Source of the DNA: a virus
Taxonomy: Duplodnaviria > Heunggongvirae > Uroviricota > Caudoviricetes
DNA: 64,000 nucleotides
Virus record (IMG/VR): IMGVR_UViG_3300020050_015720
Reading direction: 5' to 3' (one strand)
The notes under the pieces are model-generated. The model did not search any database. It saw nothing but the letters and a program-made list of their open reading frames with translations, and was not told the origin of the DNA. The position numbers and the translations under genes were made by a program. Shown in pieces: positions 25,223 to 53,869 of this stretch. Numbering within the stretch: position 1 is the first letter of the stretch; the number at the start of each line of letters is the position of its first letter.

Positions 25223-25410
25223 TGATTTGTCCAAATAAAAATAGTGCGGAATGAAAAGAACTAGTAGCAAAATATGGAGAAGATCTAGCGCTAATTAAAT
25301 TTCATCAACAGCCCACCGAAATAGTCTCCCCCATAAGAGATAAAATTGCAAATGAGGTTGGAAGAGATCTTGAATATTATACTAAAAAGTATACTGACTA
25401 TTTAGGTGAT

Positions 25411-28400: not shown

Positions 28401-29745
28401 AGTAGTGTCTCAGGATAGAATACTCCGAGCACTAAAGACTTCTGTAACATACTCTGTGCTTTCTTTTAAAGTGTGGTCTCCTATTCGTAACGCAGTTATG
28501 ATTGCAGCAGCCAATACTACGCAATCAACTAGGGGACTTGTTAACAAACTTATGTCCAACATCTTAGGAGTTCCACCAGAGTCATTTGAAACCATCAATA
28601 TAGATGGGGGAAGAGTAGCCTTAAGAGATTACATGAAAGCAAAGCTTTTAGGACAAGAAGATGACTCAAAACTCTGGAACATAGCAAAGAACTTTGATTG
28701 GTTGCCAGACAATTATCCATTTGAAGTAAACGATGATAGACTAGTTCACCAAATATCAAAGCTAAATGGTACAACTAACGCCTTCTTGTTCTACCAAGTT
28801 GGTGAAACATTTGGTGCTCTTTGGCAGCTAGCTGGGTTAATGAAGTCTATTAAAGTAAAAGATGCTTCAGGTAAAGAAGTCACATTGTGGGATGCCTACG
28901 ATAACAAAGGTAATTGGACCATAGGAGAACGAGGACAAGTCCTTCAAGCTGATGGTAGCTATGCTTCCCTAAAGGAATTAACTTCACTTGAAGTTAAGTC
29001 TCTAAAAAGAGCCTATGAGAAACTGAATGGTTCTTATCGTAAAGAAGAAAAGACAGCAATAGAAGTAAGCGTACTTGGTGATTTTGTTATGCAGTTTCAC
29101 AAGTATTTTTACCAGTACCTAAAGGTTTTATTTGCTGCTCCATACAAAGACATCACTGTGGGTAAGTATGTACTGACGGGCCAAAAACCTGATGGTATGC
29201 CTGTCTATCAATGGCACTCTGAAGTTATGGAAGGTCAATTACGTGTTCTTGTAGCTTCTATCTTTGCAGCTCTATCTGGAAAAGGTAAACAGTATCTAAC
29301 GGAAGAGAATCTTGGAGAAAATACATTGAAAGGGCACAGAGCTAGAGCTTTAGCTGGACTTTTGAATACATTTGGATGGTTTACGCTACTACTAGTACTA
29401 TTCAAGGTTGGATTAGACGACGATGAAGAAAAGTCTTATGTTGGCAGGTCTATAAAAAGAACTATTTTAGATTTAACTCGTGGAGCTCATTTAACTGATC
29501 TTGTAGATACAGCTTTAAAGCCAATTGTGGCCATTGACAAAATGGGTAAGACATCTATTGCTCTGTTTGACTTAATGGCTTCACCAGTTACTGGGAACAC
29601 TGATAGAGACGGTTGGCCCCAAGGCTTAAAGACAGTTGCTAGAGCAGTGCCATTTACTGCCGGATCACTACAGATAGCAGACGTTCTTTCTAAGGATGCT
29701 GAAGACAGTGAATATTTATTTGGGATAATACCCGTGCGCCCATAG
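25411..29745 (+). CDS. hypothetical large virion protein (1444 aa) with a C-terminal hydrophobic segment
   Basis: The ORF begins with GTG at 25411 (first ATG is at about 25507). TAG stop at 29743-29745. The segment LLNTFGWFTLLLVLFKV is hydrophobic. This is the last gene of the plus block. Confidence 0.7.
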   Translation: MADFSGVVDLFAARFDGLDAKIDGDIVRTSSGTMALFPPTKEEIIATTAFSTGYTKEDLENVLVNLSKKFGFPFETINAPAIKWKGKFVQRNGQMLVMVNTAHATKDTPFHEYYHPFVNLLRLQKPETFKVILDSANSRDTSNPEEVVTDYLARLAVKNPTSFYLSYFLQFVRDLLGLKNSLTAYSTVADLRGRAPIDVSASELPEAYQRLDEVADMMKKKFPGQASETPDYIAELLKESAKYSTSDTSSFYQDESGTDIAKRLTAFIGDKLFGEFSKKARRFMDTPAEGAAKNFYKQRGINIDKIAPKDVTQSITIGGNTYSFTEIVAGFEERFKGARLIGKLVHAYIYYRLEDNATEKAKIKQLAVGYAQELGEPYTTLEAHPRLSKIHDNFQNILDASGVMIDTTGTKGIPRSKQDKAAPEIGLVSKYLTDADGNKLGTTADGLFVHQNGDVTLLDWKTGNLTSDMSTPYLMDYGDKYGINDSKLSKGYLELTYRAIMLKEKFPNMKFRSIKLVKVDYKGKATIMELDIQPYLYTIGDYYKQTNPEIYNKLKEAKLLEASSYKGEATSIIELQDSISHLSTKEKHLYLKEKLGILHEGKTKSEIQSDPNIRVLSKKYSDAILELEKDAATDLNSKSEDLSSFWQFKNFSDISNPKVQTLHKIIMDAKAKTQKYLLGIESEHDKLYQAALNKEDQSLLKKILLGGAAVANVYGLFTFSPLWFVGSIISHKLLSRAMNTTTKNHFAFMWRESSDLERGGYYLNLQDTYLKDGVEVPLTQAQKNYRSFVYSTMKNEYDNFANTVVGYKFDNPSVPLFRYEKLGIPQTLPEDFLPRIPKPLAELREEEAFYAGGFGFKTVVGQSVKRNLTNFLEDAYTKESDGLPLKYFKHSGSSIVSDVNHSWNVDASFKYFMASLKAKESLDPVYDIAMGVYNGLQEDKDEAGKPRYDRLVKWLDSQITLQVLGDTTKDSVSAKKITLKANKLTEKLTDIPEGTPIVVSQDRILRALKTSVTYSVLSFKVWSPIRNAVMIAAANTTQSTRGLVNKLMSNILGVPPESFETINIDGGRVALRDYMKAKLLGQEDDSKLWNIAKNFDWLPDNYPFEVNDDRLVHQISKLNGTTNAFLFYQVGETFGALWQLAGLMKSIKVKDASGKEVTLWDAYDNKGNWTIGERGQVLQADGSYASLKELTSLEVKSLKRAYEKLNGSYRKEEKTAIEVSVLGDFVMQFHKYFYQYLKVLFAAPYKDITVGKYVLTGQKPDGMPVYQWHSEVMEGQLRVLVASIFAALSGKGKQYLTEENLGENTLKGHRARALAGLLNTFGWFTLLLVLFKVGLDDDEEKSYVGRSIKRTILDLTRGAHLTDLVDTALKPIVAIDKMGKTSIALFDLMASPVTGNTDRDGWPQGLKTVARAVPFTAGSLQIADVLSKDAEDSEYLFGIIPVRP

Positions 29746-29762
29746 ACGCGCAGAAAAAGTTA

Positions 29763-29800
29763 GGCCCCTTCCCACCATAACGGTGAGGAGGGGCTTTTTT
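29763..29800. terminator. imperfect hairpin with flanking A/T tracts between the convergent gene blocks, possibly a bidirectional intrinsic terminator
   Basis: The sequence aaaaag ggccccttcccacc ataac ggtgaggaggggc tttttt. The stem is GC-rich and imperfect (~10 of 13 positions pair), and A/T tracts lie on both sides. Confidence 0.6.
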
Positions 29801-30528
29801 CATTCTTCATATTTTTTGCACGCTTCTTTTAGTGAGAAGTTGTGGATGGCCTCTTGAATCTCCTTTTGATTGTAGAAAGCGGTTCCTTTTAATCGTACGA
29901 ACAATGTGTCGGCATATTCTGCCTCTGCATTCGCTTCAAGCGTGGCCAGTGTAGGTCCAAACTGCCTCACTATTTTTTCTTCAGTTATACATAGCGCGCG
30001 ATTTCGAAAATCTTGCAGGCAATCTGGGTGGATTTGGTTTACAATGTGACAATGAAAAGGTCCATCGATGTCACAGAGAGCAAGAGCCTCAAAGAGCTCC
30101 TCCATCTGTTTTAATGAAAGCTTAAAAGTTTTGGAGGATACTTTTTCAAATGTAACGATTAATTGTGTTACACCACACACATCGGGTAACTCTGTGATAT
30201 TTGAGACTACGAGATTTTGAGATAGACGGTACCTGATTGATTGAGATTTCCAATAAGTATATACGTCTTTTCCATATTGGACAGAGGCACCTAGCAAATT
30301 GGCAATTTCTTCAGGCCCAACAAAAATTGTTGTGTACAGGTCGTCATATACTGGTAGTGCTTCAAGGGGCTCGTCAGCTGGTAACACTTCTTCATATATC
30401 GGGTGCACCTCTTCAGGATATTCTGTAACTGGTGTTTTTTCAGGGACTACAGGGGATGCCCCATCAATAATTTTATCAATAGCAGCGTGACTGGTTGTGG
30501 TGTCAAAATCAATAGGATAATGTGGCAT
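29800..30528 (-). CDS. hypothetical protein (242 aa, acidic)
   Basis: ORF ending in TGA that abuts the terminator. If TGA is read through it would extend 28 codons into the hairpin, up to TAA at 29716. Confidence 0.5.
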   Translation of the reverse strand: MPHYPIDFDTTTSHAAIDKIIDGASPVVPEKTPVTEYPEEVHPIYEEVLPADEPLEALPVYDDLYTTIFVGPEEIANLLGASVQYGKDVYTYWKSQSIRYRLSQNLVVSNITELPDVCGVTQLIVTFEKVSSKTFKLSLKQMEELFEALALCDIDGPFHCHIVNQIHPDCLQDFRNRALCITEEKIVRQFGPTLATLEANAEAEYADTLFVRLKGTAFYNQKEIQEAIHNFSLKEACKKYEE

Positions 30529-31083
30529 GAATTAGTTATTTAAAAGTGAAAAAAATACCTCCCCCATTACACTTTTGTAACGAGAGAGGTTGGGAAAGAA
30601 TATTTCGACCTTAGTTCTTTAAGAGAGGTTCCTAACTCTTTTGCTAAGAATACCTCTCAATTCTGGATTAGTTGCTATGGTACCTAATATTATAACTTTG
30701 GAGGATTAAAACGGCCAAATTCAAGCCAGTATAAAATCTCTGATCGAAAGATTAGCAAGCAAAGCAATATGGTAGCTCCAATAAATCCAAAGACCTTTAG
30801 GGTAGTGAAATGAAAAGCTACCAAAACGAGTACCAGACAAAAAAGTAGGAGAATTAGTCCTCTTGAAAAGACTCTAAGCATAGTAATGTGTGTTTGCGAT
30901 TGATATGCTGGATAGAAACCTTTACTGGAGTTATGACCAAGATCACGTAAAGAAATAAAGCCGAATCTCTATCTAATAATTCAACCGTGGGTGAATGAAA
31001 ATGTGTTAAAAAATGTTGAATAAATTTAGGAGCGTCTTCTGGATTTCCTAATTTGAGGTTTGTGAGTAAGTCCGTTACAAGAT

Positions 31084-31392
31084 TCATATAACAGGCTTTA
31101 AAGATTCTTGGTACTTTTCCTCCCAAAGTTGGAGGTAGTTAAATTCGTATTCTTCCCAGAAAGCATCAATACGCTCAAGGGCTTCCATGAAATTTCCTTC
31201 AATCACAAGTACTCGAGTCAAGTATCCCAACAGAATATGTTTGAATACAAGTATATTAGTGACTGCGGGATTCTTTTTGCGCCAAGCCATGTAAAGATTC
31301 TCGGCATAATTTACGTGTTTTTGGATTTCCTCACTTAGAGATTTGGGTGGAGCAGGATTACTCCAACTAGCGATGGTAGATGAGTTTTGCAT
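31084..31392 (-). CDS. hypothetical protein (102 aa)
   Basis: ORF ending in TGA. No motifs. Confidence 0.35.
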   Translation of the reverse strand: MQNSSTIASWSNPAPPKSLSEEIQKHVNYAENLYMAWRKKNPAVTNILVFKHILLGYLTRVLVIEGNFMEALERIDAFWEEYEFNYLQLWEEKYQESLKPVI

Positions 31393-31450
31393 AAATTAAT
31401 AATTGGGAGACTCCGAAGAATCTCCCATCCTCAACATTCTGTGTGAAAAC

Positions 31451-32428
31451 TTATTGGCTAAGCAAGAAATTATTTAGCGACCCTTGCACAAAGACTTTGT
31501 TTGGGGAATTTGCTAGAGCTATCCAAGCATTGTAGGAATAGTCCAACTCCAACTTTTTTAAAAACTGCGGCGAATAAGCTTGAGATTCCAGATCAATTTT
31601 CTGCTTAGTAAGTTTCATAAGCTCAATTTCGGCCTTGGTATTTTCCATTGCAGCGACAGTCTTTTTTGTCTTCTCCTGTTCTAATAGCCTAGCATTTATG
31701 GCTGCTTGAAGTGTTGGATCAACGGAGATTTCAACGGAAAATTGTTTTAACTCCGTACCGTAAACATCGTCTATCCTCTTACGAAGACGCTCCTCCATGA
31801 TAGAGTAATAGTGTCCTCGATTTGATAGTAAAGTATCAGATACAGTGTTTTGTACTATTTGGCGACAAGACTCAACTGTTTCTTTTAGAATTGTCTGCGC
31901 CAAGGCTTCTTGGAAGTCTCTCCCATCCTTGTAGGCACTGAATTGAAGAGCAAACTTCTTACAGGCCTCGTCCGATCGAATTAATGCACAAAGAACACTT
32001 GGATCAACAAAAACTCCTACACCATCTTTACAGTACATTTGAATTGGCTCTACATGAACAGGAAAATTAGTTGCAGGAAACTGCAATGACCAGCTGGATT
32101 TTGAAAACCAATCAATAGGAAATTTACCCATAACTAATGAATAGTCGTCTATGCTTTTCCCGTAGTTTTCTACCCACACACCAATCTTGTCAGATGCCAC
32201 ATAGTCACAACTTTGCATGCAAAGAAGAAAGATTGGTAGCATGATCCAAGCTTTGATTTCACGGTAATATCGAATGATAAGTCCAATAAAAACAATGCCC
32301 AGAAGATGAGGCAAATAAGCAGCTATACCATAGAATTCAGGTGAAACTGCCATCCTTTGCCAGATCATCACGAGAATAAACCCAAGGAAGAAGACAGTGA
32401 AAAGTTTAAATAATGATTTTGGTTGCAT
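31451..32428 (-). CDS. membrane-anchored protein with an SPFH/band-7-like region and a coiled-coil tail (about 325 aa)
   Basis: Likely start is MQPKSLFKLFTVFFLGFILVMIW (ATG at 32426-32428), which looks like an N-terminal TM segment. The C-terminal half is rich in coiled-coil and resembles the stomatin/HflK family. TAA stop. Confidence 0.4.
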   Translation of the reverse strand: MQPKSLFKLFTVFFLGFILVMIWQRMAVSPEFYGIAAYLPHLLGIVFIGLIIRYYREIKAWIMLPIFLLCMQSCDYVASDKIGVWVENYGKSIDDYSLVMGKFPIDWFSKSSWSLQFPATNFPVHVEPIQMYCKDGVGVFVDPSVLCALIRSDEACKKFALQFSAYKDGRDFQEALAQTILKETVESCRQIVQNTVSDTLLSNRGHYYSIMEERLRKRIDDVYGTELKQFSVEISVDPTLQAAINARLLEQEKTKKTVAAMENTKAEIELMKLTKQKIDLESQAYSPQFLKKLELDYSYNAWIALANSPNKVFVQGSLNNFLLSQ

Positions 32429-32487
32429 AATAGTATGATTTTGAATGTTGAAGAAATTGAAAATAATGTATCTCCCCAAAGTGTTGC

Positions 32488-32805
32488 CTACAACTCTGGC
32501 TTTGATTCGATGGTTAAGGCGTACTCCATAGGGACAGCCTCGTTCCAATTAGAAACACGCTCATCTAGGTCTGCCTTTTCTTCGGCGGTTAGTTGATGAT
32601 AGGGCAGCTCGCGCGGAGTTAGTTCAAAAAGTTTTCCAGAAGGACGATGGAGCATAATCATGCGATCTAACCGCTTCCCATTCTTCATCTGGTATCGGCA
32701 ATTTGTCACGGTGATAGCATCGAATTGTTCATCAAACCCCAACTGGTCTTCTGTATATTCCATTTCGGAATTCAAATCACTGATTATTTCAGATGGTATA
32801 TTCAT
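32488..32805 (-). CDS. hypothetical protein (105 aa)
   Basis: Intact ORF with TAG stop. Confidence 0.5.
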   Translation of the reverse strand: MNIPSEIISDLNSEMEYTEDQLGFDEQFDAITVTNCRYQMKNGKRLDRMIMLHRPSGKLFELTPRELPYHQLTAEEKADLDERVSNWNEAVPMEYALTIESKPEL

Positions 32806-32825
32806 TTTATTTGTTGTGAGAAGTT

Positions 32826-32864
32826 AATAAAAAACCCCCAACCCAGTGTTACCTAGATTGGGGG
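32826..32864 (-). terminator. hairpin-plus-T-tract candidate intrinsic terminator for minus-strand transcripts
   Basis: A 7-bp stem (CCCCCAA / TTGGGGG) with a 16-nt loop. On the minus strand it is followed by TTTTTTATT. Confidence 0.55.
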
Positions 32865-32941
32865 CATGTTTTTCGTTCAATTGCAGACTAGACTGTCTAT
32901 CAACAACAGCACTACAATGTTTATTTGGTGAATGAGACCTC

Positions 32942-33400
32942 CTATCTTGTAGATTTGTTATGGGAGTTTTTAGATAATAAGTAAAGATCTACATTTATAG
33001 ACGCAAGGTCATCCGCTGTTAAAGTTTCGGGTTTCCATGTTGACATCTTTTGCTTCATCTTTTCAAGGATAATAGCCTTATTATCAGCATCTACAGCTGT
33101 TGATTTTTTGTGGTCCTCATAATAAGTGTAGGCCTGGGTTAGAAATCTTCCGAAGGACGGTGAAGAATGAGCAATTGCTCTACGAATAACTTCGCGTCTT
33201 CCCAACGTCTTTTCTTCCTCGATTCTTGTGAGGTCTGTTTCTGTAATACCTAGGACCTTTAAAGCCTCTTCCCTTTGAGATTGGGTTTGGCTAATTAGCG
33301 CTCAGCGCTCAGGACTGAAGAAACGCTGAAGTATCCCTATATATTTTGCTCCTTCGCTATAAAGAGACCTTAGCACTTCTTTGTTTTGTTTCTGGTACAT
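32942..33400 (-). CDS. hypothetical protein (about 152 aa) with one in-frame TGA (33302-33304)
   Basis: ORFs 33302..33499 and 32942..33205 are in the same frame and separated only by TGA. The likely ATG is at 33398-33400. TAG stop. Confidence 0.45.
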
Positions 33401-33911
33401 AACCGTATAATTCATTTCTGGCAAATGGTTTCGAATACACTTCTGCATCTTCAGGGAGAGAGACACCCTTTTTCTCCCACTCTTGTCGCCAAAGCTCACT
33501 CTTATCGAAAATTAACCGATTCCCGTAGAGTGAGTGACTAGGATCTGCTGGGAAGTATTTGTTCACCACTTTTCTATCCGCTTCTGAATACTTACCTTCC
33601 AAAATTTTAAAGGTGTATCCCTCTTTAACCTCCTTCGGTAACCGAAATACGAAGATACGTTTGGCCTTCTGCGGCTCGTACATCTCCACAAAGCTAGGGT
33701 GGCTCTGAAAGTATTCGGTTAGGGTTTGCGGAATTGTTTCGTTGTATTCGAGCAGAATAAAATCTCCGCTCTTTCAGTTCTTGTATTCCTCTCTATGACT
33801 GTCTCCAGAGTATGTGCTAAGGTAATATGCCGGATCATACATGTTTATTGGCGCCTTTTGCTTTAGCCCTAAGACAGGAGTGAGGAATAATGCTGTTATA
33901 GTGTGTTTCAT
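33357..33911 (-). CDS. secreted protein with signal peptide (about 184 aa), one in-frame TGA (33774-33776)
   Basis: Reading upstream of ORF 33357..33689 through the TGA gives an N-terminus MKHTITALFLTPVLGL, which is signal-peptide-like. TAG stop. Confidence 0.5.
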
Positions 33912-33912
33912 G

Positions 33913-34938
33913 CTAATTAGCAAAGACCTTTAGTGGTATTTGCCCATTATTTTCGTGAATTTCTTTTGGATATACCCATAGGTCATTTTTACTGTACCAT
34001 AGGTAATCATCTAACAATTGATATATTCCTTTGTAGTATTTTCCATCGACGAAACCACCCTCTAATCCACAATTTCTTTCATGCTGAGTGGTTGTATATA
34101 TTAATGCAGGACTTGTGGATGATGTCTTTGTTTCTGCAACAATGAATACAAAATCCTTTATAATGTAACCCTCATCAATATACTGAAGAACAGGACTCTC
34201 TTTTGTCCTTATAGCAAGATCGTAAAGAGCTGCTTGAGTGTAGTAACCAAAAGTTAAGTAACTTTGTGGAAAGTCATAAACAGATTTTCCAGTTGTCTTT
34301 AAGTCAAATGGTTCTATTGTCCTGTTTTTATGGTTTAGTCTTATCCCGTCAAGCAAGGCCTTGAATTCCTGGCCTTCAAGTTCAAAATAGATAGGAACCT
34401 GATGTAATAGTTCCTCTGTTATTCCGGATTTTACAAAATAAGGCTTTGCAAAAGGAGAGGCCAGTATTAACTCTGTCGCTTTAATTGCGGCCTCGTGCTC
34501 GTCTTTTGAGAGCACTGTTATATCCTTAGGATCAGACTGAGTGTAGTAGTACTCAACAGCGTCTGGTGTACTTCAAAACTTTTTTATCACCCAATCTCTA
34601 GACATTTTATATCCAGATGCCCAATAAGCCATCTCATAATCCTCGGCCGGAGAGTCCACTTGTATCCCCTTTGGTAAAGCTTCCACAAAACTTCCCATGA
34701 ATCCATAGGGCTTGTTTATAGTGAGGACCTTGAAACGTTTCTCCCAAGAGGTAGGATCGGTAAGTAAACAGTCAACGGCTGAACCTATTCTCAGTGCTGG
34801 GCTGTTTCACTCATATAGTTCTGGATTATCCCTTTTTAATTTTGCTGCTCTTGGATTTTGAAGGCTTTTTAGCAGACTGTTGGAAATCCTTGGTGATTTG
34901 TAATATTCTTCTATAGGATCTTTGATCTCGTTTTCCAT
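33913..34938 (-). CDS. PD-(D/E)XK family exonuclease (RecB/Cas4-like fold, QxxxY motif), about 341 aa, two in-frame TGA (34573-34575 and 34807-34809)
   Basis: ORF 33913..34515 continues in-frame upstream to an ATG at 34936-34938 if TGA is translated. Motifs: an N-terminal ISNSLLKSL segment, DLK and GYYTQAALY (QxxxY). Confidence 0.7.
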
Positions 34939-34972
34939 TTAATCATTCTTTTATAATTTCCACACAAACAGC

Positions 34973-35311
34973 TACTTGAGCTTGATTGCCAGGCATTAGG
35001 AGTATTATTTTCTTGTTTCTATATAAATACTTAAAGAGCTTTCATCTCAAATCAAAGTCAGGTCTTCTTAGTCCTTTCGTTTCTATTACTCAATCCTCAC
35101 CCATAAAGTCTGGGCTGTATATGATGTTCTTGTAGGATGATTTCTTTTCAACAAGGCCTTTTTTTGTTTTTTCAATGTTTAGACCTTTGAAAAGGAAAGC
35201 AGGCACTAATTCGATCGCTCTTTCGTAATCAAACTGAATACCTGCCTCCTCTAATAGCACTCAACAATATTTTTCAAGGTCATTTCTGCCCTTCTGATTA
35301 TTTTTTTCCAT
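34973..35311 (-). CDS. small PD-(D/E)XK nuclease-like protein (about 112 aa) with three in-frame TGA (35042, 35090, 35261)
   Basis: This region has no standard-code ORF. Read with TGA as sense it forms a single frame: MEKNNQKGRNDLEKYC*VLLEEAGIQFDYERAIELVPAFLFKGLNIEKTKKGLVEKKSSYKNIITAPDFMGED*VIETKGLRRPDFDLR*KLFKYLYENKKIILLMPGNQAQ (* = TGA). It carries a PD...(E)xK-like core. TAG stop at 34973. Confidence 0.5.
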
Positions 35312-36026
35312 TCAATGCTTTGTTTAGCATGTCTGCATAGCCCCTTATAGCAATAATGTCGCTGGGGCGAAGCATGGTTTCAATGTTGGCTATCAGCATT
35401 TCTTCTTTCGGCGTCTGAATCAAGGTCACATGACCATAATCCAATCCAATTTCATCAACACTGTTTTTGGCCATAGCAAAGGCGGCATCCCTGTCCCAAG
35501 CAGACGGAATACTATGTGATAGCACACCATTGGATGTCTGTTTTGTTCCCAGATTTAATGCTCTACCAGCCGCGTTTGGGATAACGTGCACTTGCGCACT
35601 TTGGTATCCCTGTGGAAGCTTCAACAAGGATCCCCCCGGAAGTTCTGCTGCTCCTATAAGAGCCAGAATTTCTGCGTAGTCCCCAATCTCTTTTGCCAAA
35701 GACTCGGCTATTTCCATAATGATGAAATCTTCCAAAGACTCATAGAATTCCTCAAAAGAAGAAAGATCGAACATTCCATCAGTAATGAAGGCTGTTTTTG
35801 GTGCATGATCTGGGACAACGTATCCTTCTGCTGCTAAATGGAGAAGTAGCGCCTCTTTGTCTTGAGTAAGGCGAACACTTGGTGGCGGATTAATGTGGAC
35901 TTTTTGAATGTGCTCTGGAGGAAATCGTGAGTCCTCAAAACAGCCACTTATGTTGTAAGCAGGGTTGAGCATCTGCTGGTTGATGTTCGGGTACTTTGCC
36001 CGTGTTTTCTGATCGAATTTTACCAT
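35298..36026 (-). CDS. hypothetical protein (242 aa), possibly a Rossmann-like nucleotide-processing enzyme
   Basis: Intact ORF with TAA stop. Its ATG overlaps the stop of the uracil-DNA glycosylase gene. No confident family assignment. Confidence 0.55.
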   Translation of the reverse strand: MVKFDQKTRAKYPNINQQMLNPAYNISGCFEDSRFPPEHIQKVHINPPPSVRLTQDKEALLLHLAAEGYVVPDHAPKTAFITDGMFDLSSFEEFYESLEDFIIMEIAESLAKEIGDYAEILALIGAAELPGGSLLKLPQGYQSAQVHVIPNAAGRALNLGTKQTSNGVLSHSIPSAWDRDAAFAMAKNSVDEIGLDYGHVTLIQTPKEEMLIANIETMLRPSDIIAIRGYADMLNKALNGKK

Positions 36027-36721
36027 CGTATTTTATTTTTTAAACTTGAATTAATTATTTCAAAAAACCTCTTGTCCTTGAATAGATGGTAAGAGAAAGG
36101 AGATGGGTGGGCTCCCTTCACTATGACATGGCGTGGATTTATCTTTGGTTCAAAGGCGTGAGCTTTTGTCCCCCAAAGTACCCATACGATCTGGTCACGC
36201 TTATTTAGTACCTTTATGACTTCCTCGGTAAAGGGAGCCCATATAGGCACATGACTCAAGGGTTCCTTGCTTACAACAGTTAATGCTGTGTTTAAAAGGA
36301 GCACCCCCTGTGAAGGAAGGTGCTCCAAATAACTCAACACATTCTCTGTAGCCTGGGTTTCCCCGCAATCCTTCACTATCTCCTTCAGAATATTCCTAAG
36401 AGATGGGGAGGGACGTTTCGTTTTTGAATTGTCGAAAGCTATTCCTGTAGCGGAACCATCGTGGTAAGGATCTTGGCCAATAATAACTACTCTAACGGTA
36501 TTGTATGGGGTCTCTTTGAAAGCCCTGAAAACGTTTGATAGAGTAGAAGGATATATAGTCTGTTTTTTGCTCTCCGGTGATTCCAGGTTACGTATTTCCA
36601 GCCTTTCCTTTTCGGCCTTTAGATAAGGGATGATTTTCTCCTTGAAGTAATCGAAAGCCCCACTTAAAGGTGTTAACCAAGACTCCCCAACAAAATTGGA
36701 GAGATTGTCGTGCTTTGTCAT
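36020..36721 (-). CDS. ung: uracil-DNA glycosylase (family 1)
   Basis: Carries the diagnostic GQDPYH motif (IIGQDPYHDGSATGIAF) and a C-terminal HPSP motif (KGAHPSPFSY). ATG and TAA are intact. Confidence 0.9.
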   Translation of the reverse strand: MTKHDNLSNFVGESWLTPLSGAFDYFKEKIIPYLKAEKERLEIRNLESPESKKQTIYPSTLSNVFRAFKETPYNTVRVVIIGQDPYHDGSATGIAFDNSKTKRPSPSLRNILKEIVKDCGETQATENVLSYLEHLPSQGVLLLNTALTVVSKEPLSHVPIWAPFTEEVIKVLNKRDQIVWVLWGTKAHAFEPKINPRHVIVKGAHPSPFSYHLFKDKRFFEIINSSLKNKIRW

Positions 36722-37099
36722 TTATTGGTAAAGTATCGAATCTACTATGATTCGTTGTGAATAAGGGGTCTCTTCAATTAACATTATGATGGTACTGTCC
36801 GGGCAATCCATCTCATCACAGGTTGTAAAGCACTGTGTTTTAAAGTGTTTCTTCGCTTCTTCTAAGTTCACTGTCTCAATATGGTTTGAAAAACTCATAC
36901 TAATTGAGTCCTTCGCAAATTCTACAATATCTATTCGATATGATTTTGGACTGCTTCTAACCACTTCTTGCAATTCTTCGATGGCTTTGGTTGTTTTCGC
37001 TATTTCAGGTACTAGTGCGGCCACTCCGATAGACAGACCTACGCAGAGGGTAATAATTACCAGGTTCAATTTTTCAAGTCTACTTAAGTTCTTAAGCAT
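36722..37099 (-). CDS. small membrane protein (125 aa)
   Basis: N-terminal hydrophobic segment LVIITLCVGLSIGVAALV. TAA stop. Confidence 0.5.
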   Translation of the reverse strand: MLKNLSRLEKLNLVIITLCVGLSIGVAALVPEIAKTTKAIEELQEVVRSSPKSYRIDIVEFAKDSISMSFSNHIETVNLEEAKKHFKTQCFTTCDEMDCPDSTIIMLIEETPYSQRIIVDSILYQ

Positions 37100-38037
37100 T
37101 TGGATAATAGTTTTTTTATTTTTCTGTTTGTTTGGACAACTCCAAAGTGTTTTTGGTAATCCGAAATATCCTTAAACACTGGATCTAAGTGTATGTTTGG
37201 AAGCTTCAGACGAAGCGATAATTTATTTGCAAACGTCACTCCGGCCGCGTCTCCGTCTAGGAAGATAACGATCTTTTTGAACCGTTTTCTTAGACCCGTT
37301 ATGTACGGAGCAATGGTTTCGTAGGAATCAGAACTAAGACCATACCCTTCCCCGTTTAGGGCCACAGCATTAAAACCATGCTGCTTTAAGACCATTATAT
37401 CCTTTATAGAAGATGTGATAAACAGTAGTTGTCCTCTCTGAGGTAATTGGTACAATCCTCCAATATCTTCCGCTGTGGCATTTCCACCTCATTTCTTTTG
37501 CTTATCAGGGCTGAGTGGTCGGTAAAGTTTTATTCTACCAGAAATGAACTTATAGGCAAAGAGAGGATTTTGTTTACTGCTACGTCCTACAAACGATTCA
37601 TTTTTATAGAGACTCTTTACTATAAAGCAGTATTTTGCTACTATTGTTTTTGGTATTCTGTACCTTTTCCAATAGTGCATACCATCCTCAATATCCCCAG
37701 GAATAAAGGAGAATACAGGTTTCTCGGGTTTATCTTCGACCTCTTGATCTTGGAACAAATGGGCATCCTTTTCAATCTTGGCAATTGCTTCGGAATAAGA
37801 TAGTCCAAATTTTTCTTTAACAAAATCAATTAGCGTATATTTTTTTCCAGTGCCAAAGTCTACAAATAGCGGAGTATTTGAATTTCCAATTCAAAATGAA
37901 CATGTTGGATTCTTGTCTCCTCTTAGCGGATTCTTATAATGTCGACCAAAGACTATTTCTGAATTCAAATAATACCCAAAAGCACCTAGGACACTAATCC
38001 TTTGAAGTATGTTCGTGTGTTCCTTTGCCTTTAGCAT
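37084..38037 (-). CDS. DNA primase (CHC2-like zinc-binding region plus Toprim domain), about 317 aa, two in-frame TGA (37489-37491 and 37891-37893)
   Basis: ORFs 37084..37455 and 37489..37758, plus the upstream region to an ATG at 38035, lie in one frame separated only by TGA. Motifs: KNPLRGDKNPTCSF*IGNSN (zinc-finger-like) and the Toprim motif VIFLDGDAAG. TAA stop. Confidence 0.7.
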
Positions 38038-38377
38038 CTCTATGAATTGTGACTTTTGTGATTGTTTTCGCCTTGTAAACTTCGATTAAATAGCATTCAA
38101 TCTGACTATGTGCATCGAGCCTAAAGGTTTTATTGAAAGCTACGTGTTGACGACTTACGTAACACCGCTCATTTTTTTCGTTGATAAAATCAGCTGAAAA
38201 TTCAGCAACCATAACCTCTTCTAGGAGATCAGGTGAAGAAGCAAGTACTGCCTGCAATTTGGCAAGATGCTTGAAATAGTATTCTAGTGTTAACATAAGA
38301 TAAATAAAAAAAGGGGTAGCAGATTGTAGCCTACTACCCCTAGATTTTAGCTCTGTAAAAACCTCATTTCTACCCAA
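37994..38377 (-). CDS. hypothetical protein (127 aa)
   Basis: Intact ORF with TAG stop. Overlaps the primase start. Confidence 0.45.
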   Translation of the reverse strand: MGRNEVFTELKSRGSRLQSATPFFIYLMLTLEYYFKHLAKLQAVLASSPDLLEEVMVAEFSADFINEKNERCYVSRQHVAFNKTFRLDAHSQIECYLIEVYKAKTITKVTIHRDAKGKGTHEHTSKD

Positions 38378-38414
38378 CCACGCCTAACGGTGGTAATTGT
38401 GATTAGTGAGCTAC

Positions 38415-39005
38415 TTAGACCAATGACTCTAAGTCCTCTGAAGAGGCACTGCCTGCGGCGTTCGACTTGGCAGCACGCTTCATTTCCATTTCGGAGATTG
38501 CCGCATTATCATCCTTTGATAACTTTAGGCCTGTTTCACTCCCTGGGTTGTGCCGCTCTACATACCTTGAGTAAGGCAACTCGGGATACATTTTCTCCTT
38601 ATAGTCTGGAATTACTTTCAGATTAACAGGTACATTTTTATGTGCACCTAAAAGAAGAGCTGCTTTCGCAACAAACTCCTTATAATCTGTAGCCTCGAAG
38701 GTCTCGACGATCTCTGGTCCGAGAAATACTAGCATCAAATCAGTGATTTGACCTAGGTTACGTTTTTGCTCCCTGTTATATGCGTCCTGAATAGTTTCGC
38801 CATCCTTCGGCTTACTACCAGTAGGCATGAACAGCCTTTTGTGGATTGCTCTCCCAGTGGTTGGCTCGGAGAACAGGATATCTGTCCAAGTTTGATCTGT
38901 GACAAGGCCACTGAAAACTACGGTTCCTTCGTGAATTCCTACTGGAATCTTTGTGCCACCTGTGCCGTTGTCACTGTTCAAAAATAGTTTTGCTTGTAAA
39001 CTCAT
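38415..39005 (-). CDS. hypothetical protein (196 aa) with an acidic C-terminal tail, possibly DNA-binding
   Basis: Intact ORF with TAA stop. C-terminus ends ...SASSEDLESLV. No confident family assignment. Confidence 0.5.
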   Translation of the reverse strand: MSLQAKLFLNSDNGTGGTKIPVGIHEGTVVFSGLVTDQTWTDILFSEPTTGRAIHKRLFMPTGSKPKDGETIQDAYNREQKRNLGQITDLMLVFLGPEIVETFEATDYKEFVAKAALLLGAHKNVPVNLKVIPDYKEKMYPELPYSRYVERHNPGSETGLKLSKDDNAAISEMEMKRAAKSNAAGSASSEDLESLV

Positions 39006-39010
39006 TTCGT

Positions 39011-39358
39011 TTAATTTTCTGCTGCAATTACAGCGGTTCGAACATTCTCTAGATTATTTTCAATTTTGCTTGGAAACACGTCCATAACTGAACGAGCTTC
39101 ATTGGTACCATCACTTTTGGTTATCAACTCATAGTTGAAATTACCATCAGCTCCAGCACTTATCTTTGTGTATAAATTATAAGATAGAAAGGCATTCAAG
39201 TTAATCTTTGAAAGCTTCTTTCCATTGACCATAGTACGATAATGGGTAATACCATTTACGTCATAGGCCTCGCAATGCGCTAATACGAATACTACAAAAT
39301 CATCACGCTTAATTTCACGTATTAACTTATATAGATTTCATACTTCTACAGCTAGCAC
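39011..39358 (-). CDS. hypothetical protein with one in-frame TGA (39338-39340); start uncertain
   Basis: ORF 39011..39232 extends upstream in-frame through the TGA. There is no ATG before the TAG at 39401, so GTG at 39356 is a possible start. Confidence 0.35.
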
Positions 39359-39658
39359 TATTCCCCATATTTCTATGGGGCGTGGATCATATCTTCTTTG
39401 CTAAGATTCTGCGCTTATACTAGTATCTTTTAGTGTGTAAACACAATTGCAAAGTCCTGCCATTTCGGGCTTTAAAAGTCGCCCTACTCCCCTTCGGAGG
39501 GATGATCTCTGAACGTTCCCCTGTTCGGGGCTTCGCTGCTGATTGTCCAATTCTATTATTTTTTAACTTATCAAGCTTGCCTTTATTTCAAAGCTACTTT
39601 GTAGTATAATAAACTCTAAGGATATTCCAGCAATTAGACAGGTACCGGACCTAACCTA

Positions 39659-39976
39659 TTGATCCGCCCACTTATCTCTTGAAGGAGATTCTAGGATAGC
39701 CATCTCTTCTGTTGTCATCATAGCATTTATAGTGTCTATAACAATACAGTTGATATCTTGGCGTGTCTCACTAACAGCCTTTACCACTTTATATATTGTT
39801 GTGGGATCGGCCGTCTTCGCGTAGTTTTTATTTTCCGCATTATAAGCGTTCTTTCATCCTTTCCAAGAGAGACCTTTTCCATCCGCATCAATGTAGTAAG
39901 TGCTCTTCGGGTCTAAGAAACGTGCTCCTGTAGTTTTACCTGTTGCAGGTAGTCCTGTTATTTGTACTAAGTTCAT
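39659..39976 (-). CDS. small P-loop NTPase / nucleotide-kinase-like protein (about 105 aa) with one in-frame TGA (39854-39856)
   Basis: Not in the ORF track. Hand translation: MNLVQITGLPATGKTTGARFLDPKSTYYIDADGKGLSWKG*KNAYN...DKWADQ with TAG stop at 39656. Walker A is GLPATGKT. The ATG lies 2 nt after the TAA of the upstream gene. Confidence 0.5.
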
Positions 39977-39978
39977 AA

Positions 39979-40977
39979 TTATAAATCTACTTCTTCTAGT
40001 TTATAGTGTGCAAAATTCTCAGCCAAAGCAATTACCCCAGGCTTTCCGAATCTTTCTTTTATGAGGTGCCAATAGACCATGTGTCTACTAGGCTCCTTTG
40101 GGTATACTAATGGTCAGCCATTTGGAAACTGAGTTCTTGGGGGCCCGTAACCTTTTTCTACACCATTTATGGTTCGCTTCATACCATTTACTGTTATAGG
40201 TCTATGGGACACTAAAACATAGTCTGACGTATGGTAAACAGACGAAGCAGCAAATATGTCATTTCTATTTGGGAAATGGTATAACGGATTTTCTACACGT
40301 TCAACCCGTTCGATATCCCTGTTTAATTGGCCCAAACTAATAATGAGGCAACGTAGGCCTATATGAGCACAATATTTTTTTATATCATTCAAGACATCCA
40401 TCAAAGCATCTACAATCTCTTTCTCGTTGTCACCTGTTCTACCTTTTGTCAAAAGTATGTGGTCAATTGTGATTACTAATCCTAGATTCTTTGAGAGCAA
40501 CTGCCTCTCTGATATAAAGGTTAGAATAGTTTCCTGTATTTGGGATGGTGTGCCAGGATTGTCAACGTAATAAACTGGAACAGAATTTCGCTTCTCTAAC
40601 GCTTTTTCTACCTCATCAAATGCTTCTTTAGACAATGGGCTAGCCGCAGAATACAATTCCTTTATAGTGTACTTTCCTAAAGAAGACACATAACGAGCTA
40701 GCTGATCTTCAATTAGCATCTCAAATTCAAAGGAAAGAATCTCAAAATCAGGTTTATTAAGATCAATAAAATCTTTCTTTAGTTGCTCAAGGATTGTAGA
40801 TTTTCCAGAGCCCGACTGCCCCACAATCGTAAATATTCTTCCTCAGTCAATGCCTCCCATAAGCACAGAGTTCAGTTTAGAAAATGAAGTCTTCAAGGAT
40901 TTTATCTCGCCACTCTGTCTCTTCTTTATGTATTCTAAGGTTGAGTTAACTCCATAACTAATGTGTCTATATTCCAT
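39979..40977 (-). CDS. DnaB-like replicative helicase (RecA-fold C-terminal domain), about 332 aa, two in-frame TGA (40114-40116 and 40843-40845)
   Basis: ORF 40114..40824 starts directly at Walker A (GQSGSGKST). The upstream in-frame extension through TGA reaches an ATG at 40975. Walker B is LVITIDH, and a DnaB-like C-terminal motif (NDIFAASSVYHTSDYVL) is present. Downstream read-through of the TGA at 40114 adds 45 protein-like codons to TAA at 39979. Confidence 0.65.
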
Positions 40978-41534
40978 TATAACAATCCATTATCTTCTTC
41001 TAAAGTATATACAGGAAAAACTATGTTTTCATATTCCTTATCTCTTAACCAATTGACTGAAGCTTTCATGTATTTAAAAGGGTTGGAAAGAGATGGAGAC
41101 TCTTTCTTATTTTTTATCTCTATTTCAAGAGCTTCCTGTAGTTCAGGAGCAGACAGACTATTTAATGCTAACAAATATTGCGCATAGGTTTCCTTTTTGT
41201 TCTGCCTTAATTTTCTTGTTTCTCCAAATCGATCTCACTTATCGGACGCTGGGAAGGTTTTCCAGAACAACTCAAAATCTTCTGTGTAAGTAGCTGTGGC
41301 TTCGTTAGGCAGGAGGGTTAAGTAGCGTGAGAGAAAAACGTGACCAGCATCCAACAAGTGTGTTTCTGTGCAAAGTTTTTGGGAGATTAGATTTTCTATT
41401 ATCAAGTTTTCTTCGATACTCGGTTGTGTTAACTCTCCCGTGCTTAGGTACCACAGCACGAGGTATGATTCGACCGAGATCCTGTCTTCTTTCAATTGCC
41501 TGTATATAGGCAGCGTTAAGGGTAATTGAGACAT
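40977..41534 (-). CDS. hypothetical protein (about 185 aa) upstream of the helicase; possible replisome organiser/loader. One in-frame TGA (41235-41237).
   Basis: ORFs 41235..41534 and 40977..41174 share a frame across the TGA. The joined product reads ...ASDK*DRFGETRKLRQNKKETYAQYLLALNSLSAPELQEALE... Confidence 0.45.
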
Positions 41535-41820
41535 AATTTAAAATATGTTTTGAGTAGTGTATCTGCTTTGTGTCTGCATATTCCTCATTGACTTCTAAGG
41601 ACATTTCTGTGCTATCAAAGTATTCCTGTATCCGCTCCATTAATTGGGTTGCATCCCAAATACATTGAAAATAAGATAAATAAGGAAAGGAATGCAATAG
41701 TAGATGTGACCGCCCCTTTTGAGTGTAACGAATAGAGAAAATAACGCTATAAGAGTCTGCCCAAAAGGTTGTTTGCAGGTCTTTTGTTTTTAGTGTGCCG
41801 GAGAATATTCGTTTTTCCAT
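41305..41820 (-). CDS. hypothetical protein (171 aa) overlapping the previous gene by about 230 nt in another frame
   Basis: Standard ORF from ATG at 41818 to TAA at 41305. The long overlap suggests either a frameshift (real or error) or an overlapping gene. Confidence 0.35.
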   Translation of the reverse strand: MEKRIFSGTLKTKDLQTTFWADSYSVIFSIRYTQKGRSHLLLHSFPYLSYFQCIWDATQLMERIQEYFDSTEMSLEVNEEYADTKQIHYSKHILNYVSITLNAAYIQAIERRQDLGRIIPRAVVPKHGRVNTTEYRRKLDNRKSNLPKTLHRNTLVGCWSRFSLTLLNPPA

Positions 41821-46636: not shown

Positions 46637-46644
46637 TATTTTTT

Positions 46645-53843: not shown

Positions 53844-53869
53844 ATAGATTTTAGTTTAATTGTTAACAA

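What the first reader, a model, noticed from the sequence alone, without database searches (positions are those of the whole stretch)
34939..35311. 'ORF-free' stretches in the standard-code ORF track are coding under TGA=sense (34939-35311 and 39233-40113)
A 360-nt gap (no standard ORF of 60 aa or more) encodes a 112-aa PD-(D/E)XK-like protein in which all three presumed Trp positions are TGA. The 880-nt gap at 39233-40113 contains the 45-codon C-terminal extension of the DnaB-like gene and a P-loop kinase-like gene (39659-39976). These would be mis-annotated as non-coding or as pseudogenes by table-11 pipelines.
Basis: seen in the sequence. Interest (0 to 1): 0.5.

Follow-up and report, generated by a model that had tools for sequence, protein, structure and literature searches.

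The report
TGA-as-tryptophan replication genes plus an intron

Summary

- **First gap.** 34939-35311 is part of a T7-endonuclease-I/DUF1064-type resolvase gene (35311..34826, minus strand). The protein is 161 aa, not 112. All four of its Trp codons are TGA.
- **Second gap.** 39233-40113 holds four things:
  - the last 44 codons of a DnaB-like helicase, downstream of an in-frame TGA;
  - the start of exon 2.
- **TGA = Trp.** Across 22 related phage loci, the 22 in-frame TGAs of the replication block align with TGA (68), TGG-Trp (59), Phe (10) and Leu (9). They never align with Gly or Cys.
- **Not table 4 throughout.** The virion-gene block has no exonic TGA against 119 TGG. The flanking minus-strand blocks use TGA only at ORF ends, mostly in ATGA stop/start overlaps.
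- **Decoder.** The same phage carries a tRNA with a UCA anticodon beside a tmRNA, 26 kb upstream of the window.

TGA recoding, block-wise codes and group I introns are all published for crAss-like phages. The unusual point is polarity: replication genes are recoded and structural genes are not.

The parts
34826..35311 (-). Resolvase gene of the T7 endonuclease I / DUF1064 type (PD-(D/E)XK), 161 aa. All four Trp codons are TGA: 35263..35261, 35092..35090, 35044..35042 and 34945..34943. This is the first 'ORF-free' stretch.
   Evidence: Translation. phrog_190 'Holliday junction resolvase', E 1.3e-08. Pfam DUF1064 at 20.4-21 bits, below the 24.7 cut-off. Homologs P0001 (53% identity, 159 aa) and P0002 (DUF1064, 38% identity) align end to end, with W74 and W90 invariant. 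In six relatives all four positions are TGA or TGG. Weak match to T7 endonuclease I, E 0.026.
33913..34938 (-). Exonuclease VIII-like PD-(D/E)XK nuclease (DUF3799), 341 aa, with TGA at 34809..34807 and 34575..34573. Its first 113 nt are overlapped out of frame by the resolvase 3' end.
   Evidence: phrog_412, E 2.5e-23, one stretch covering residues 8-283. Pfam DUF3799 at 29.8 bits against a cut-off of 26. Codon 122 is TGA in six relatives. The overlap is conserved in L106, L110 and L112.
39979..40977 (-). DnaB-like replicative helicase, 332 aa, with TGA at 40845..40843 (codon 45) and 40116..40114 (codon 288). The 44 codons after the second TGA fill the upper end of the second gap.
   Evidence: Pfam DnaB_C at 52.2 bits; phrog_19 covers residues 5-330. 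Relatives align over residues 1-332 at 59-82% identity. Codon 45 aligns with 7 TGG and 3 TGA; codon 288 with 9 Leu and 1 TGG.
39662..39976 (-). Exon 1 (105 codons) of a Sak4-like / AAA_24 ATPase, with Walker A GLPATGKT and a TGA at 39856..39854.
   Evidence: Sequence. The spliced protein matches phrog_2872 over 3-209 of 219 residues, E 2.9e-33, and Pfam AAA_24 at 34.7 bits against a cut-off of 27. The TGA aligns with 10 TGG and 6 TGA.
39356..39661 (-). Group I intron, 306 nt, without an ORF. The 5' exon ends in U (39662) and the intron ends in G (39356). An in-frame TAG (39658..39656) lies two codons inside the intron.
   Evidence: Rfam RF00028, 64.4 bits (gathering score 50), E 4.8e-14. Intronless alleles in L002 and L106-L110 fix the junction at residue 105|106. 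L111-L114 carry an 870-nt intron at the same site. Its core is 89-94% identical to this one and it holds a GIY-YIG-type ORF.
39011..39355 (-). Exon 2 (114 codons plus stop) of the Sak4-like ATPase, with TGA at 39340..39338.
   Evidence: Contiguous with exon 1 in intronless relatives. The TGA aligns with 8 TGG and 2 TGA.
33357..49356 (-). Replication/recombination module in which TGA encodes Trp: 22 in-frame TGA against 42 TGG, and every gene ends in TAA or TAG. Besides the genes listed above it includes primase (37084-38037), an SF2 helicase (43652-44836), family A DNA polymerase (46636-48522), and the ORFs 33357-33923, 40977-41534 and 48754-49356.
   Evidence: Coverage is 70.0% under code 11 and 94.5% with TGA as sense.
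22..29745 (+). Virion/cargo gene block (crAss ring protein, ORFs of 1406, 778, 632, 4095, 1148 and about 1500 aa). It has no in-frame TGA and only TAA/TAG stops, so it reads the same under either code.
   Evidence: With the upstream extension from the same phage the block has 0 exonic TGA against 119 TGG. Fisher test against the replication block gives p = 5.7e-12.
49695..63646 (-). Block of mostly uncharacterised genes (bpMoxR ATPase, vWA-like protein, glucosaminidase) in which Trp is TGG and TGA occurs only at ORF 3' ends. Examples of ATGA stop/start overlaps are at 57675..57672, 51668..51665 and 50822..50819.
   Evidence: Nine of 11 terminal TGAs are in ATGA context, against 6 of 22 sense TGAs. 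The overlap at the AAA/vWA junction is conserved in L002.
29716..33205 (-). Distal end of the minus-strand unit. Here too TGA occurs only at ORF ends: 29802..29800, followed by a GC-rich inverted repeat, and 31086..31084 in an ATGA overlap.
   Evidence: The terminator scan found nothing, so the hairpin is a sequence observation only.

Best explanation
The window comes from a divergent crAss-like phage that uses two genetic codes in blocks.

**Shown**
- In the 16-kb replication/recombination module (33.3-49.4 kb, minus strand) UGA is read as tryptophan.
- With that reading the first ORF-free stretch becomes a 161-aa resolvase of the T7 endonuclease I / DUF1064 type.
- The second stretch is the C-terminus of a DnaB-like helicase plus a Sak4-like ATPase gene split by a 306-nt group I intron.
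- Outside the replication module TGA is either absent (virion genes) or sits at the ends of genes as a stop.
- A tRNA with anticodon UCA is encoded by the same phage about 26 kb upstream of the window, next to a tmRNA.

**Inferred**
- That tRNA is charged with Trp and competes with the host's release factor 2.
- The intron splices itself out of the mRNA to restore the ATPase frame.
- Translation of the replication proteins therefore depends on, and is throttled by, the phage suppressor tRNA. Virion genes are immune to the switch, and the TGA-terminated genes acquire at most short tails.
For: **TGA = Trp**
- The 22 window TGAs align in 22 related loci with 68 TGA, 59 TGG, 10 Phe, 9 Leu and 4 Tyr.
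- Conversely, the relatives' in-frame TGAs align with window Trp in 36 of 61 cases (first seen).
- Resolvase W74 and W90 are invariant, including in a homolog annotated DUF1064 from a bacterial bin.
- The C-terminal TGAs of PolA (codon 626) and of the resolvase (codon 123) are also Trp in homologs.

**Specific to TGA and to one block**
- Coverage of the replication block rises from 70.0% to 94.5% only under TGA-sense.
- TGA/TGG counts are 22/42 in the replication block and 0/119 in virion exons. The other minus-strand block has at most 3 internal TGA against 83 TGG.

**TGA as a stop elsewhere**
- TGA is the first stop in 14 of 32 genes of that block.
- Nine of 11 such TGAs are in ATGA context, with the ATG starting the next ORF.
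- Tail lengths after these TGAs match the null distribution after true stops.
- The L002 homolog of window gene 54069-54569 has a TGA where the window gene has its TAA.

**Decoder**
- tRNA(UCA) lies at L025 3666-3763, in a contig that joins the window through overlapping assemblies 99-100% identical to it. It follows a tmRNA.
- Related phages carry tRNA(UCA) at the syntenic place. One is a clear tRNA-Trp look-alike scoring 55.7 bits against the Rfam tRNA model.

**Intron:**

**crAss-like identity**
- Pfam CrAss_Ring_1 and CrAss_Ring_2 hit the gene at 347-1048 and its upstream neighbour.
- The portal protein is 28-29% identical to gut crAss-like portals.
Against: - No protein or RNA data exist. 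Splicing and UGA decoding are inferred from sequence alone.
- The tRNA(UCA) of this phage is atypical. It is 98 nt long with a long variable arm, and its best Rfam match is tRNA-Sec at 34.7 bits, below the gathering score of 47. Its amino-acid identity is therefore not established from the tRNA itself.
- The tRNA lies outside the window, on a contig joined to it through overlapping near-identical assemblies.
- A few TGA positions align with non-aromatic residues: exonuclease codon 44 with D/K/N, and PolA codon 30 with S.
- That the terminal TGAs in the other blocks truly terminate rests on ATGA overlaps and unconserved tails, not on direct evidence.
- The early/middle/late timing of the blocks is assumed by analogy with studied crAss-like phages.
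Confidence: 0.85

Rival explanations
1. The whole phage, and perhaps its host, uses table 4 uniformly. Every TGA is Trp, and the TGAs near ORF ends simply add Trp-containing tails before the true TAA/TAG stop.
For: TGA is Trp in 11 genes. Two TGAs close to C-termini, PolA codon 626 and resolvase codon 123, are demonstrably Trp. No gene in the replication or virion blocks needs TGA as a stop.
Against: - There is no TGA among 119 Trp codons of virion exons, and at most 3 internal TGA against 83 TGG in the 49.7-69 kb block. The replication block has 22 against 42.
- In that block TGAs cluster in the last 40 codons of 14 of 32 genes. Nine of 11 are in ATGA context, where the ATG opens the next ORF.
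- The tails are not conserved in length or sequence with L002. The ATGA overlap at the AAA/vWA junction is conserved.
- Table 4 does not raise coverage outside the replication block.
Confidence: 0.1
2. TGA is decoded as something other than Trp (Sec, Ser, Cys or Gly), because the phage tRNA(UCA) has a tRNA-Sec-like shape.
For: ARAGORN labels the tRNA 'SeC'. Its best Rfam family is tRNA-Sec at 34.7 bits. It has a 6-bp D stem with a 4-nt loop and a long variable arm.
Against: - Aligned residues are Trp (59) or aromatic/hydrophobic: Phe 10, Leu 9, Tyr 4. Ser appears 3 times. Cys and Gly never appear.
- Twenty-two codons in 11 unrelated enzymes do not fit a selenoprotein pattern.
- Invariant structural Trp positions in the DUF1064 family are TGA here.
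- Short-form tRNA(UCA) genes in relatives look like tRNA-Trp, with A1-U72 and G73.
Confidence: 0.04
3. The interrupted frames are pseudogenes, assembly errors or chance ORF fusions, and the stretches are non-coding.
For: None beyond the table-11 ORF gaps themselves.
Against: - The sequence is identical in the JGI contig, and the TGAs are kept in an independent assembly that differs by 16 SNPs.
- Full-length, single-stretch matches to family profiles run across the TGAs.
- TGA and TGG interchange at the same columns in relatives at 35-92% amino-acid identity.
- The TAG-sense and TAA-sense controls do not raise coverage.
Confidence: 0.01

Closest known systems
crAss-like (Crassvirales-type) phages with block-wise stop-codon reassignment, TGA to Trp or TAG to Gln (Yutin et al. 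2021, PMC7886860; Mgcod preprint 10.1101/2022.06.29.495998; Borges et al. preprint 10.1101/2021.08.26.457843)
   Same: - crAss-like gene content, including the ring proteins, the portal and giant virion proteins.
- In-frame TGA aligning with TGG or TGA in relatives.
- Recoding confined to part of the genome, with another part readable under either code.
- A phage-encoded tRNA that reads the stop codon, placed at the head of the virion-gene unit.
- Fragmentation of these genes by table-11 gene callers.
   Different: - Those papers place the reassigned codons in late structural and lysis genes and describe replication genes as unrecoded or variable.
- Here the replication/recombination module is the recoded one, the virion genes have no TGA at all, and a third block still ends genes on TGA.
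- The phage is distant from those described. Its portal is under 30% identical to any GenBank phage, and there is no nucleotide match.
[quoted passage not shown] 2021, PMC7886860); classic phage group I introns carrying GIY-YIG homing endonucleases
   Same: - Rfam group I model above its gathering score.
- A U at the end of the 5' exon and a G at the end of the intron.
- Present or absent at one exact site among relatives.
- A relative's copy carries a GIY-YIG-type ORF.
- The major capsid gene of the same phage is also interrupted.
   Different: The copy in the window has lost, or never had, the endonuclease ORF (306 nt against 870 nt). I did not test whether the interrupted ATPase is the same gene as 'ATP_43b'. 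The relative's intron ORF itself contains in-frame TGA.
Phage T7 endonuclease I / DUF1064 (PF06356) Holliday-junction resolvases
   Same: Shared motifs LE..L...GI.FEYE and Y(S/T)PDF...(I/V)ETKG, with the D...E-x-K catalytic triad. Similar size and a basic C-terminal tail.
   Different: The Pfam score is below the gathering cut-off and the PDB match is marginal (E 0.026). All four Trp are encoded by TGA. The gene overlaps the downstream nuclease gene by 113 nt.
Bacterial code 4 (Mollicutes and some endosymbionts)
   Same: UGA is decoded as Trp through a tRNA with a UCA anticodon.
   Different: In code-4 bacteria UGA is never a stop and makes up 80-90% of Trp codons (Mgcod preprint). Here TGA makes up 34% of Trp codons in one block and none elsewhere, and it serves as the first stop in other genes.

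Membership tests
Stop-codon-recoded phage genes (TGA to Trp) | In-frame TGA in conserved genes, at columns that are Trp (TGG) or TGA in homologs | tested here: met
   68 TGA, 59 TGG, 10 Phe, 9 Leu and no Gly or Cys over 22 codons and 22 loci. In reverse, 36 of 61 relatives' TGAs align with window Trp.
Stop-codon-recoded phage genes (TGA to Trp) | Coding density rises specifically when TGA is read as sense | tested here: met
   The replication block rises from 70.0% to 94.5%. TAG-sense gives 65.5% and TAA-sense 67.1%. The other blocks do not change.
Stop-codon-recoded phage genes (TGA to Trp) | Phage-encoded suppressor tRNA with anticodon UCA | tested here: met
   Found by ARAGORN at L025 3666-3763, in the same phage but outside the window. 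Rfam supports it only below threshold, as tRNA-Sec-like. Relatives carry it at the syntenic place. No tRNA lies in the window itself.
Multi-code crAss-like phages as described in the literature | Reassigned codons concentrated in late structural and lysis genes, with replication genes in the standard code | tested here: not met
   Virion exons have 0 TGA against 119 TGG. Replication genes have 22 TGA against 42 TGG.
Uniform genetic code 4 | TGA is never used as a terminator | tested here: not met
   TGA is the first stop in 14 of 32 genes of the 49.7-69 kb block. Nine of 11 are in ATGA context, and tail lengths fit the null distribution. This is indirect evidence; there are no protein data.
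crAss-like phages (Crassvirales-type) | Signature virion genes | tested here: met
   Pfam CrAss_Ring_1 on 347-1048 and CrAss_Ring_2 on the gene upstream. The portal is 28-29% identical to annotated crAss-like portals. The major capsid gene is present in the same phage.
Group I intron (Rfam RF00028) | Covariance-model score at or above the gathering threshold | tested here: met
   64.4 bits against 50, E 4.8e-14, full model 1-253.
Group I intron (Rfam RF00028) | Splice-site rules (5' exon ends in U, intron ends in G) and exact restoration of the host ORF | tested here: met
   The junction GAU|C...G|CUA was fixed from intronless alleles. The spliced protein matches phrog_2872 end to end. Rfam's own P1 placement, 20 nt upstream, disagreed and was rejected.
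Group I intron (Rfam RF00028) | Self-splicing activity | not testable with these tools
   Needs in vitro transcription and splicing, or RT-PCR.
DUF1064 / T7 endonuclease I-like resolvase (PD-(D/E)XK) | Pfam PF06356 gathering score | tested here: not met
   20.4-21 bits against a cut-off of 24.7.
DUF1064 / T7 endonuclease I-like resolvase (PD-(D/E)XK) | Catalytic D...E-x-K motif and homology to family members | tested here: met
   D68, E77 and K79 are invariant in alignment A1. P0002 carries PF06356 and is 38% identical over 95% of the query. phrog_190 gives E 1.3e-08.
Sak4-like / AAA_24 ATPase | Pfam AAA_24 gathering score and a Walker A motif | tested here: met
   The spliced protein scores 34.7 bits against 27, whereas exon 1 alone scores 24.5, below the cut-off. 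Walker A is GLPATGKT. phrog_2872 gives E 2.9e-33.
DnaB-like helicase | Pfam DnaB_C gathering score, with full length restored by reading TGA as sense | tested here: met
   52.2 bits against 27. phrog_19 covers residues 5-330 of 332. Relatives align over 1-332.
Selenocysteine insertion | TGA at Cys/Sec columns in a few selenoprotein families | tested here: not met
   No Cys is aligned to any of the 22 TGA codons, which lie in 11 replication enzymes. No SECIS search was done.

The most novel reading that the evidence does not exclude
This phage lineage uses stop-codon recoding with the opposite polarity to every recoded phage described so far.
- UGA-to-Trp decoding gates or throttles the replication/recombination enzymes.
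- Virion genes are kept strictly free of UGA.
- A third set of genes still terminates on UGA.

The published idea that recoding times late and lysis gene expression cannot apply here. The switch may be driven by an unusual Sec-shaped tRNA(UCA). Its long variable arm ends in a conserved (G/U)UCCAAA loop that copies the anticodon loop of tRNA-Trp, and it is encoded next to a phage tmRNA.
Probability: 0.35. Interest if true: 0.65.

Novelty: new variant of a known kind. Interest (0 to 1): 0.42.

Why it matters
**Annotation.** Table-11 annotation of this phage group breaks the polymerase, helicases, primase, nucleases and the Sak4-like ATPase into fragments or leaves them as 'non-coding'. Blanket use of table 4 would instead fuse or extend genes in the blocks that end on TGA. 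Correct annotation needs block-wise codes and intron-aware gene models.

**Biology.** The published rationale for phage recoding is control of late structural and lysis genes. A lineage that recodes only its replication module and keeps virion genes free of TGA is a natural counter-example. It suggests other uses of recoding, and these are testable if a host or isolate is found:
- making replication depend on a phage tRNA;
- keeping catalytic proteins at low levels;
- protecting the module from expression in the wrong context.

Tried and rejected
1. **Splice site from Rfam.** I first took the 5' splice site from Rfam's P1 alignment (exon ending at 39682) and built a trial junction from it.
2. 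**Fourth resolvase TGA as a stop.** The TGA at 34945..34943 sits 4 nt before the next gene's ATG and looked like a stop. Homologs align through it and the 38-aa tail.
3. **PolA C-terminal TGA as a stop.** The relatives have TGG at that column.
4. **Backup stops after terminal TGAs.** I tested whether terminal TGAs are followed unusually soon by TAA or TAG. They are not, compared with the control after true stops (Mann-Whitney p = 0.16).
5. **Nucleotide context.** The base after TGA does not clearly separate sense from terminal TGAs (A/G/T/C = 13/7/1/1 against A/T/G = 7/3/1). Only the base before differs, through the ATGA context.
6. **Terminator after 29802..29800.** The consensus scan found none, so only an inverted repeat seen by eye remains.
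7. **Searches with no hits.** Megablast of 33000-42000 against GenBank phages found nothing. IMG/VR scans with the bpMoxR ATPase and the 465-aa AAA protein also found nothing. Comparison of the TGA-terminated block therefore rests on one relative, L002.
8. **Naive ORF coverage.** Whole-window coverage does not discriminate between codes, because any stop read as sense raises it. I replaced it with a same-strand, per-block measure with controls.
9. **Literature on the tRNA.** A search for a suppressor tRNA with a Trp-anticodon-like variable arm found nothing relevant.
Full report
**1. The observation**

Under the bacterial code, the ORF list for 33000-42000 has no ORF of 60 aa or more inside 34939-35311 or 39233-40113. 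Only fragments of 40-58 aa are present.

The minus strand from 35311 reads as one frame broken only by TGA:

MEKNNQKGRNDLEKYC*VLLEE...SPDFMGED*VIETKGLRRPDFDLR*KLFK...EIIKE*LNGKR...KIKKG

The gap is therefore real.
- There are four in-frame TGAs, not three.
- The frame runs 161 codons, not 112.
- There is no TGG in it.

In the second gap the DnaB-like frame continues for 44 sense codons after the TGA at 40116..40114. A P-loop ORF starts at 39976.

**2. Is TGA sense, and which amino acid?**

I fetched related phage loci using the polymerase, the Sak4-like protein and structural proteins as queries. I then aligned every protein of the 33.3-49.4 kb block against them, masking each TGA as X.

| Aligned with the 22 window TGA codons (22 loci) | Count |
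|---|---|
| TGA | 68 |
| TGG (Trp) | 59 |
| Phe | 10 |
| Leu | 9 |
| Tyr | 4 |
| Asp | 4 |
| Ser | 3 |
| Gly or Cys | 0 |

- In the reverse direction, in-frame TGAs of the relatives align with window Trp in 36 of 61 cases.
- For the resolvase, a database search gave a 159-aa homolog (53% identity) and a 151-aa protein annotated DUF1064 (38% identity). Both align over the whole 161 aa. W74 and W90 are invariant. W17 aligns with W/F and W123 with W/I.
- The fourth TGA lies 4 nt before the next gene's ATG and looked like a stop. It is a Trp codon. The gene ends at 34826 and overlaps the exonuclease gene by 113 nt. Three relatives keep this overlap.
- The TGAs are not errors. The JGI contig is identical to the window, and an independent assembly differing by 16 SNPs keeps all six TGAs that could be checked.

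**3. What the recovered genes are**

| Gene (minus strand) | Identification | Evidence |
|---|---|---|
| 35311..34826 | Resolvase, T7 endonuclease I / DUF1064 type | phrog_190 E 1.3e-08; Pfam DUF1064 just below cut-off; marginal T7 endonuclease I match covering both motifs; D68/E77/K79 |
| 34938..33913 | Exonuclease VIII-like nuclease, DUF3799 | |
| 38037..37084 | Primase | |
| 40977..39979 | DnaB-like helicase | DnaB_C 52.2 bits; relatives align over 1-332 |
| 44836..43652 | SF2 helicase | |
| 48522..46636 | Family A DNA polymerase with 3'-5' exonuclease domain | |

**4. The second gap also holds a group I intron**

- Rfam finds a full-length group I intron at 39691..39363 (64.4 bits, E 4.8e-14).
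- The relative L002 carries the ATPase gene uninterrupted (...ESPSRDKWADLATDVWNLYKL...). This fixes the window junction at ...GCG GAU(39662) | intron 39661..39356 | CUA GCU....
- The 5' exon ends in U and the intron ends in G. The last five exon bases can pair with GUCCG just inside the intron, with a U-G pair at the splice site. I read this pairing from the sequence.
- The spliced 219-aa protein matches the Sak4-like family phrog_2872 over residues 3-209 (E 2.9e-33). It passes Pfam AAA_24, which exon 1 alone does not.
- Six relatives lack the intron.
- Four others carry an 870-nt insertion at exactly residue 105|106. Its ends are 89% and 94% identical to the window intron, and its middle encodes a GIY-YIG-like protein.
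- The window copy is therefore a version of a mobile intron without the endonuclease ORF. The TAG that seemed to end the 'P-loop kinase' lies two codons inside the intron.

**5. TGA is not sense everywhere**

I joined the window to near-identical contigs of the same phage, giving about 103 kb in all. Counts per block are in the table.

| Block | In-frame TGA | TGG | Stops |
|---|---|---|---|
| Virion block (plus strand, to 29745) | 0 in exons | 119 | TAA/TAG only |
| Replication block (33357-49356) | 22 | 42 | TAA/TAG only |
| Minus-strand block 49.7-69 kb | at most 3 internal | 83 | TGA is first stop in 14 of 32 genes |

- The only TGAs in the virion block lie in ORFs inside two insertions in the capsid gene, and upstream of a probable true start.
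- Fisher tests against the replication block give p = 5.7e-12 for the virion block and p = 2.8e-06 for internal TGAs of the 49.7-69 kb block.
- Nine of 11 terminal TGAs in the window are in ATGA context, against 6 of 22 sense TGAs. In at least eight cases the ATG opens the next ORF.
- The overlap at the bpMoxR/vWA junction is also present in L002, as GTGA, at about 33% amino-acid identity.
- The L002 homolog of 54069-54569 has a TGA where the window gene has its TAA.
- Tail lengths after terminal TGAs match those after true stops (p = 0.16). That fits termination, and it also rejects my idea of selected backup stops.
- Per-block coding density agrees. Table 4 helps only the replication block.

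**6. The decoder**

- No tRNA lies in the window or its immediate flanks.
- About 25.9 kb upstream of the window start, the same phage encodes a tmRNA (Rfam 53.4 bits). It is followed by a 98-nt tRNA with anticodon UCA.
- Rfam matches this tRNA best to tRNA-Sec, at 34.7 bits, below the gathering score.
- Relatives carry tRNA(UCA) at the same place. Some are ordinary tRNA-Trp look-alikes of 72-75 nt. Others are 94-100 nt long, with a variable arm whose stem co-varies and whose loop is a conserved (G/U)UCCAAA. That resembles the tRNA-Trp anticodon loop.
- The alignments, not the tRNA, are what show that Trp is inserted.

**7. Comparison with what is known**

- The phage is crAss-like. Pfam CrAss_Ring_1 and CrAss_Ring_2 hit its ring-protein genes. 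The portal is 28-29% identical to gut crAss-like portals. There is no nucleotide match to GenBank phages.
- Yutin et al. 2021 describe TGA-to-Trp and TAG-to-Gln reassignment in parts of crAss-like genomes, suppressor tRNAs, and group I introns in core genes. Mgcod and Borges et al. describe block-wise codes.
- All three place the reassigned codons in late structural and lysis genes. They describe replication genes as unrecoded or variable.
- Here the polarity is inverted, and relatives at 35-92% identity share it.

**8. Verdict**

- The finding is real, and its core interpretation (TGA is sense, and the stretches are genes) is correct.
- It belongs to a published phenomenon.
- It needs three corrections: the gene length and TGA count, the missed intron, and the block-limited rather than window-wide use of table 4.
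- The inverted polarity and the odd tRNA are the parts worth following up.

Noticed in passing
L025 3281-3542 and 3666-3763 (same phage; window coordinate = L025 position minus 29568). Also L028, L029, L031, L033, L044, L045, L050, L055, L079 and L081.: A phage tmRNA is followed by a tRNA with anticodon UCA. In several phages this tRNA is 94-100 nt long and Sec-like in shape. Its variable-arm hairpin has a co-varying stem and a conserved (G/U)UCCAAA loop that resembles the tRNA-Trp anticodon loop. Relatives L045 and L079 have ordinary tRNA-Trp-like forms of 72-75 nt. I did not find this described (two literature look-ups only).
   Followed up: partly
L015 2869-6219 (same phage, upstream of the window): The major capsid protein gene is split into three pieces (residues 1-214, 210-333 and 322-498 of the uninterrupted L016 homolog). 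The two insertions are about 0.8 and 1.0 kb. Each carries an ORF with in-frame TGA. They are probably further introns. Rfam at gathering threshold did not flag them.
   Followed up: partly
window 34826-34938 (minus strand): The resolvase 3' end and the exonuclease 5' end overlap out of frame by 113 nt. Both frames are conserved at protein level in L106, L110 and L112.
   Followed up: partly
window 5268-7604 (plus strand): This virion-block gene varies in length among near-identical strains: 778 aa here, 660 aa in L011 and L013, and 917 aa in L012. The alignment breaks at about 5544-5780 and 6280-7063.
   Followed up: no
window 9495-21782 (plus strand): A single 4095-aa ORF with a Dda-like helicase / AAA_30 segment near residues 1240-1357. 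It is flanked by other giant ORFs of 1406, 1148 and about 1500 aa, none with an in-frame TGA. I did not look for crAss-type RNA polymerase domains.
   Followed up: no
L111-L114 9131-10000; L112 4115-4952: The relatives' intron ORF (GIY-YIG-like) itself contains in-frame TGA. In L112 the SF2 helicase gene is also interrupted, by about 840 nt.
   Followed up: no
window 56455-58709 (minus strand): A bpMoxR-type AAA ATPase and a vWA-like protein form a pair joined by an ATGA overlap. The pair and a 4-nt start/stop overlap (GTGA in L002) are conserved in L002. Their function in the phage is unknown.
   Followed up: no
window 49414-49782 (minus strand): A small ORF at the edge of the recoded block. 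If it starts at the ATG at 49710, which overlaps the preceding gene's TGA, it has one internal TGA. It is unclear whether it belongs to the recoded set or is spurious.
   Followed up: no
window 52001-56000: G+C is 0.44 here against about 0.38-0.40 in the rest of the window.
   Followed up: no
P0002: The closest named homolog of the resolvase is annotated as coming from a 'Candidatus Dependentiae bacterium' MAG, on a 43-kb contig. It may be a phage contig binned with that genome.
   Followed up: no
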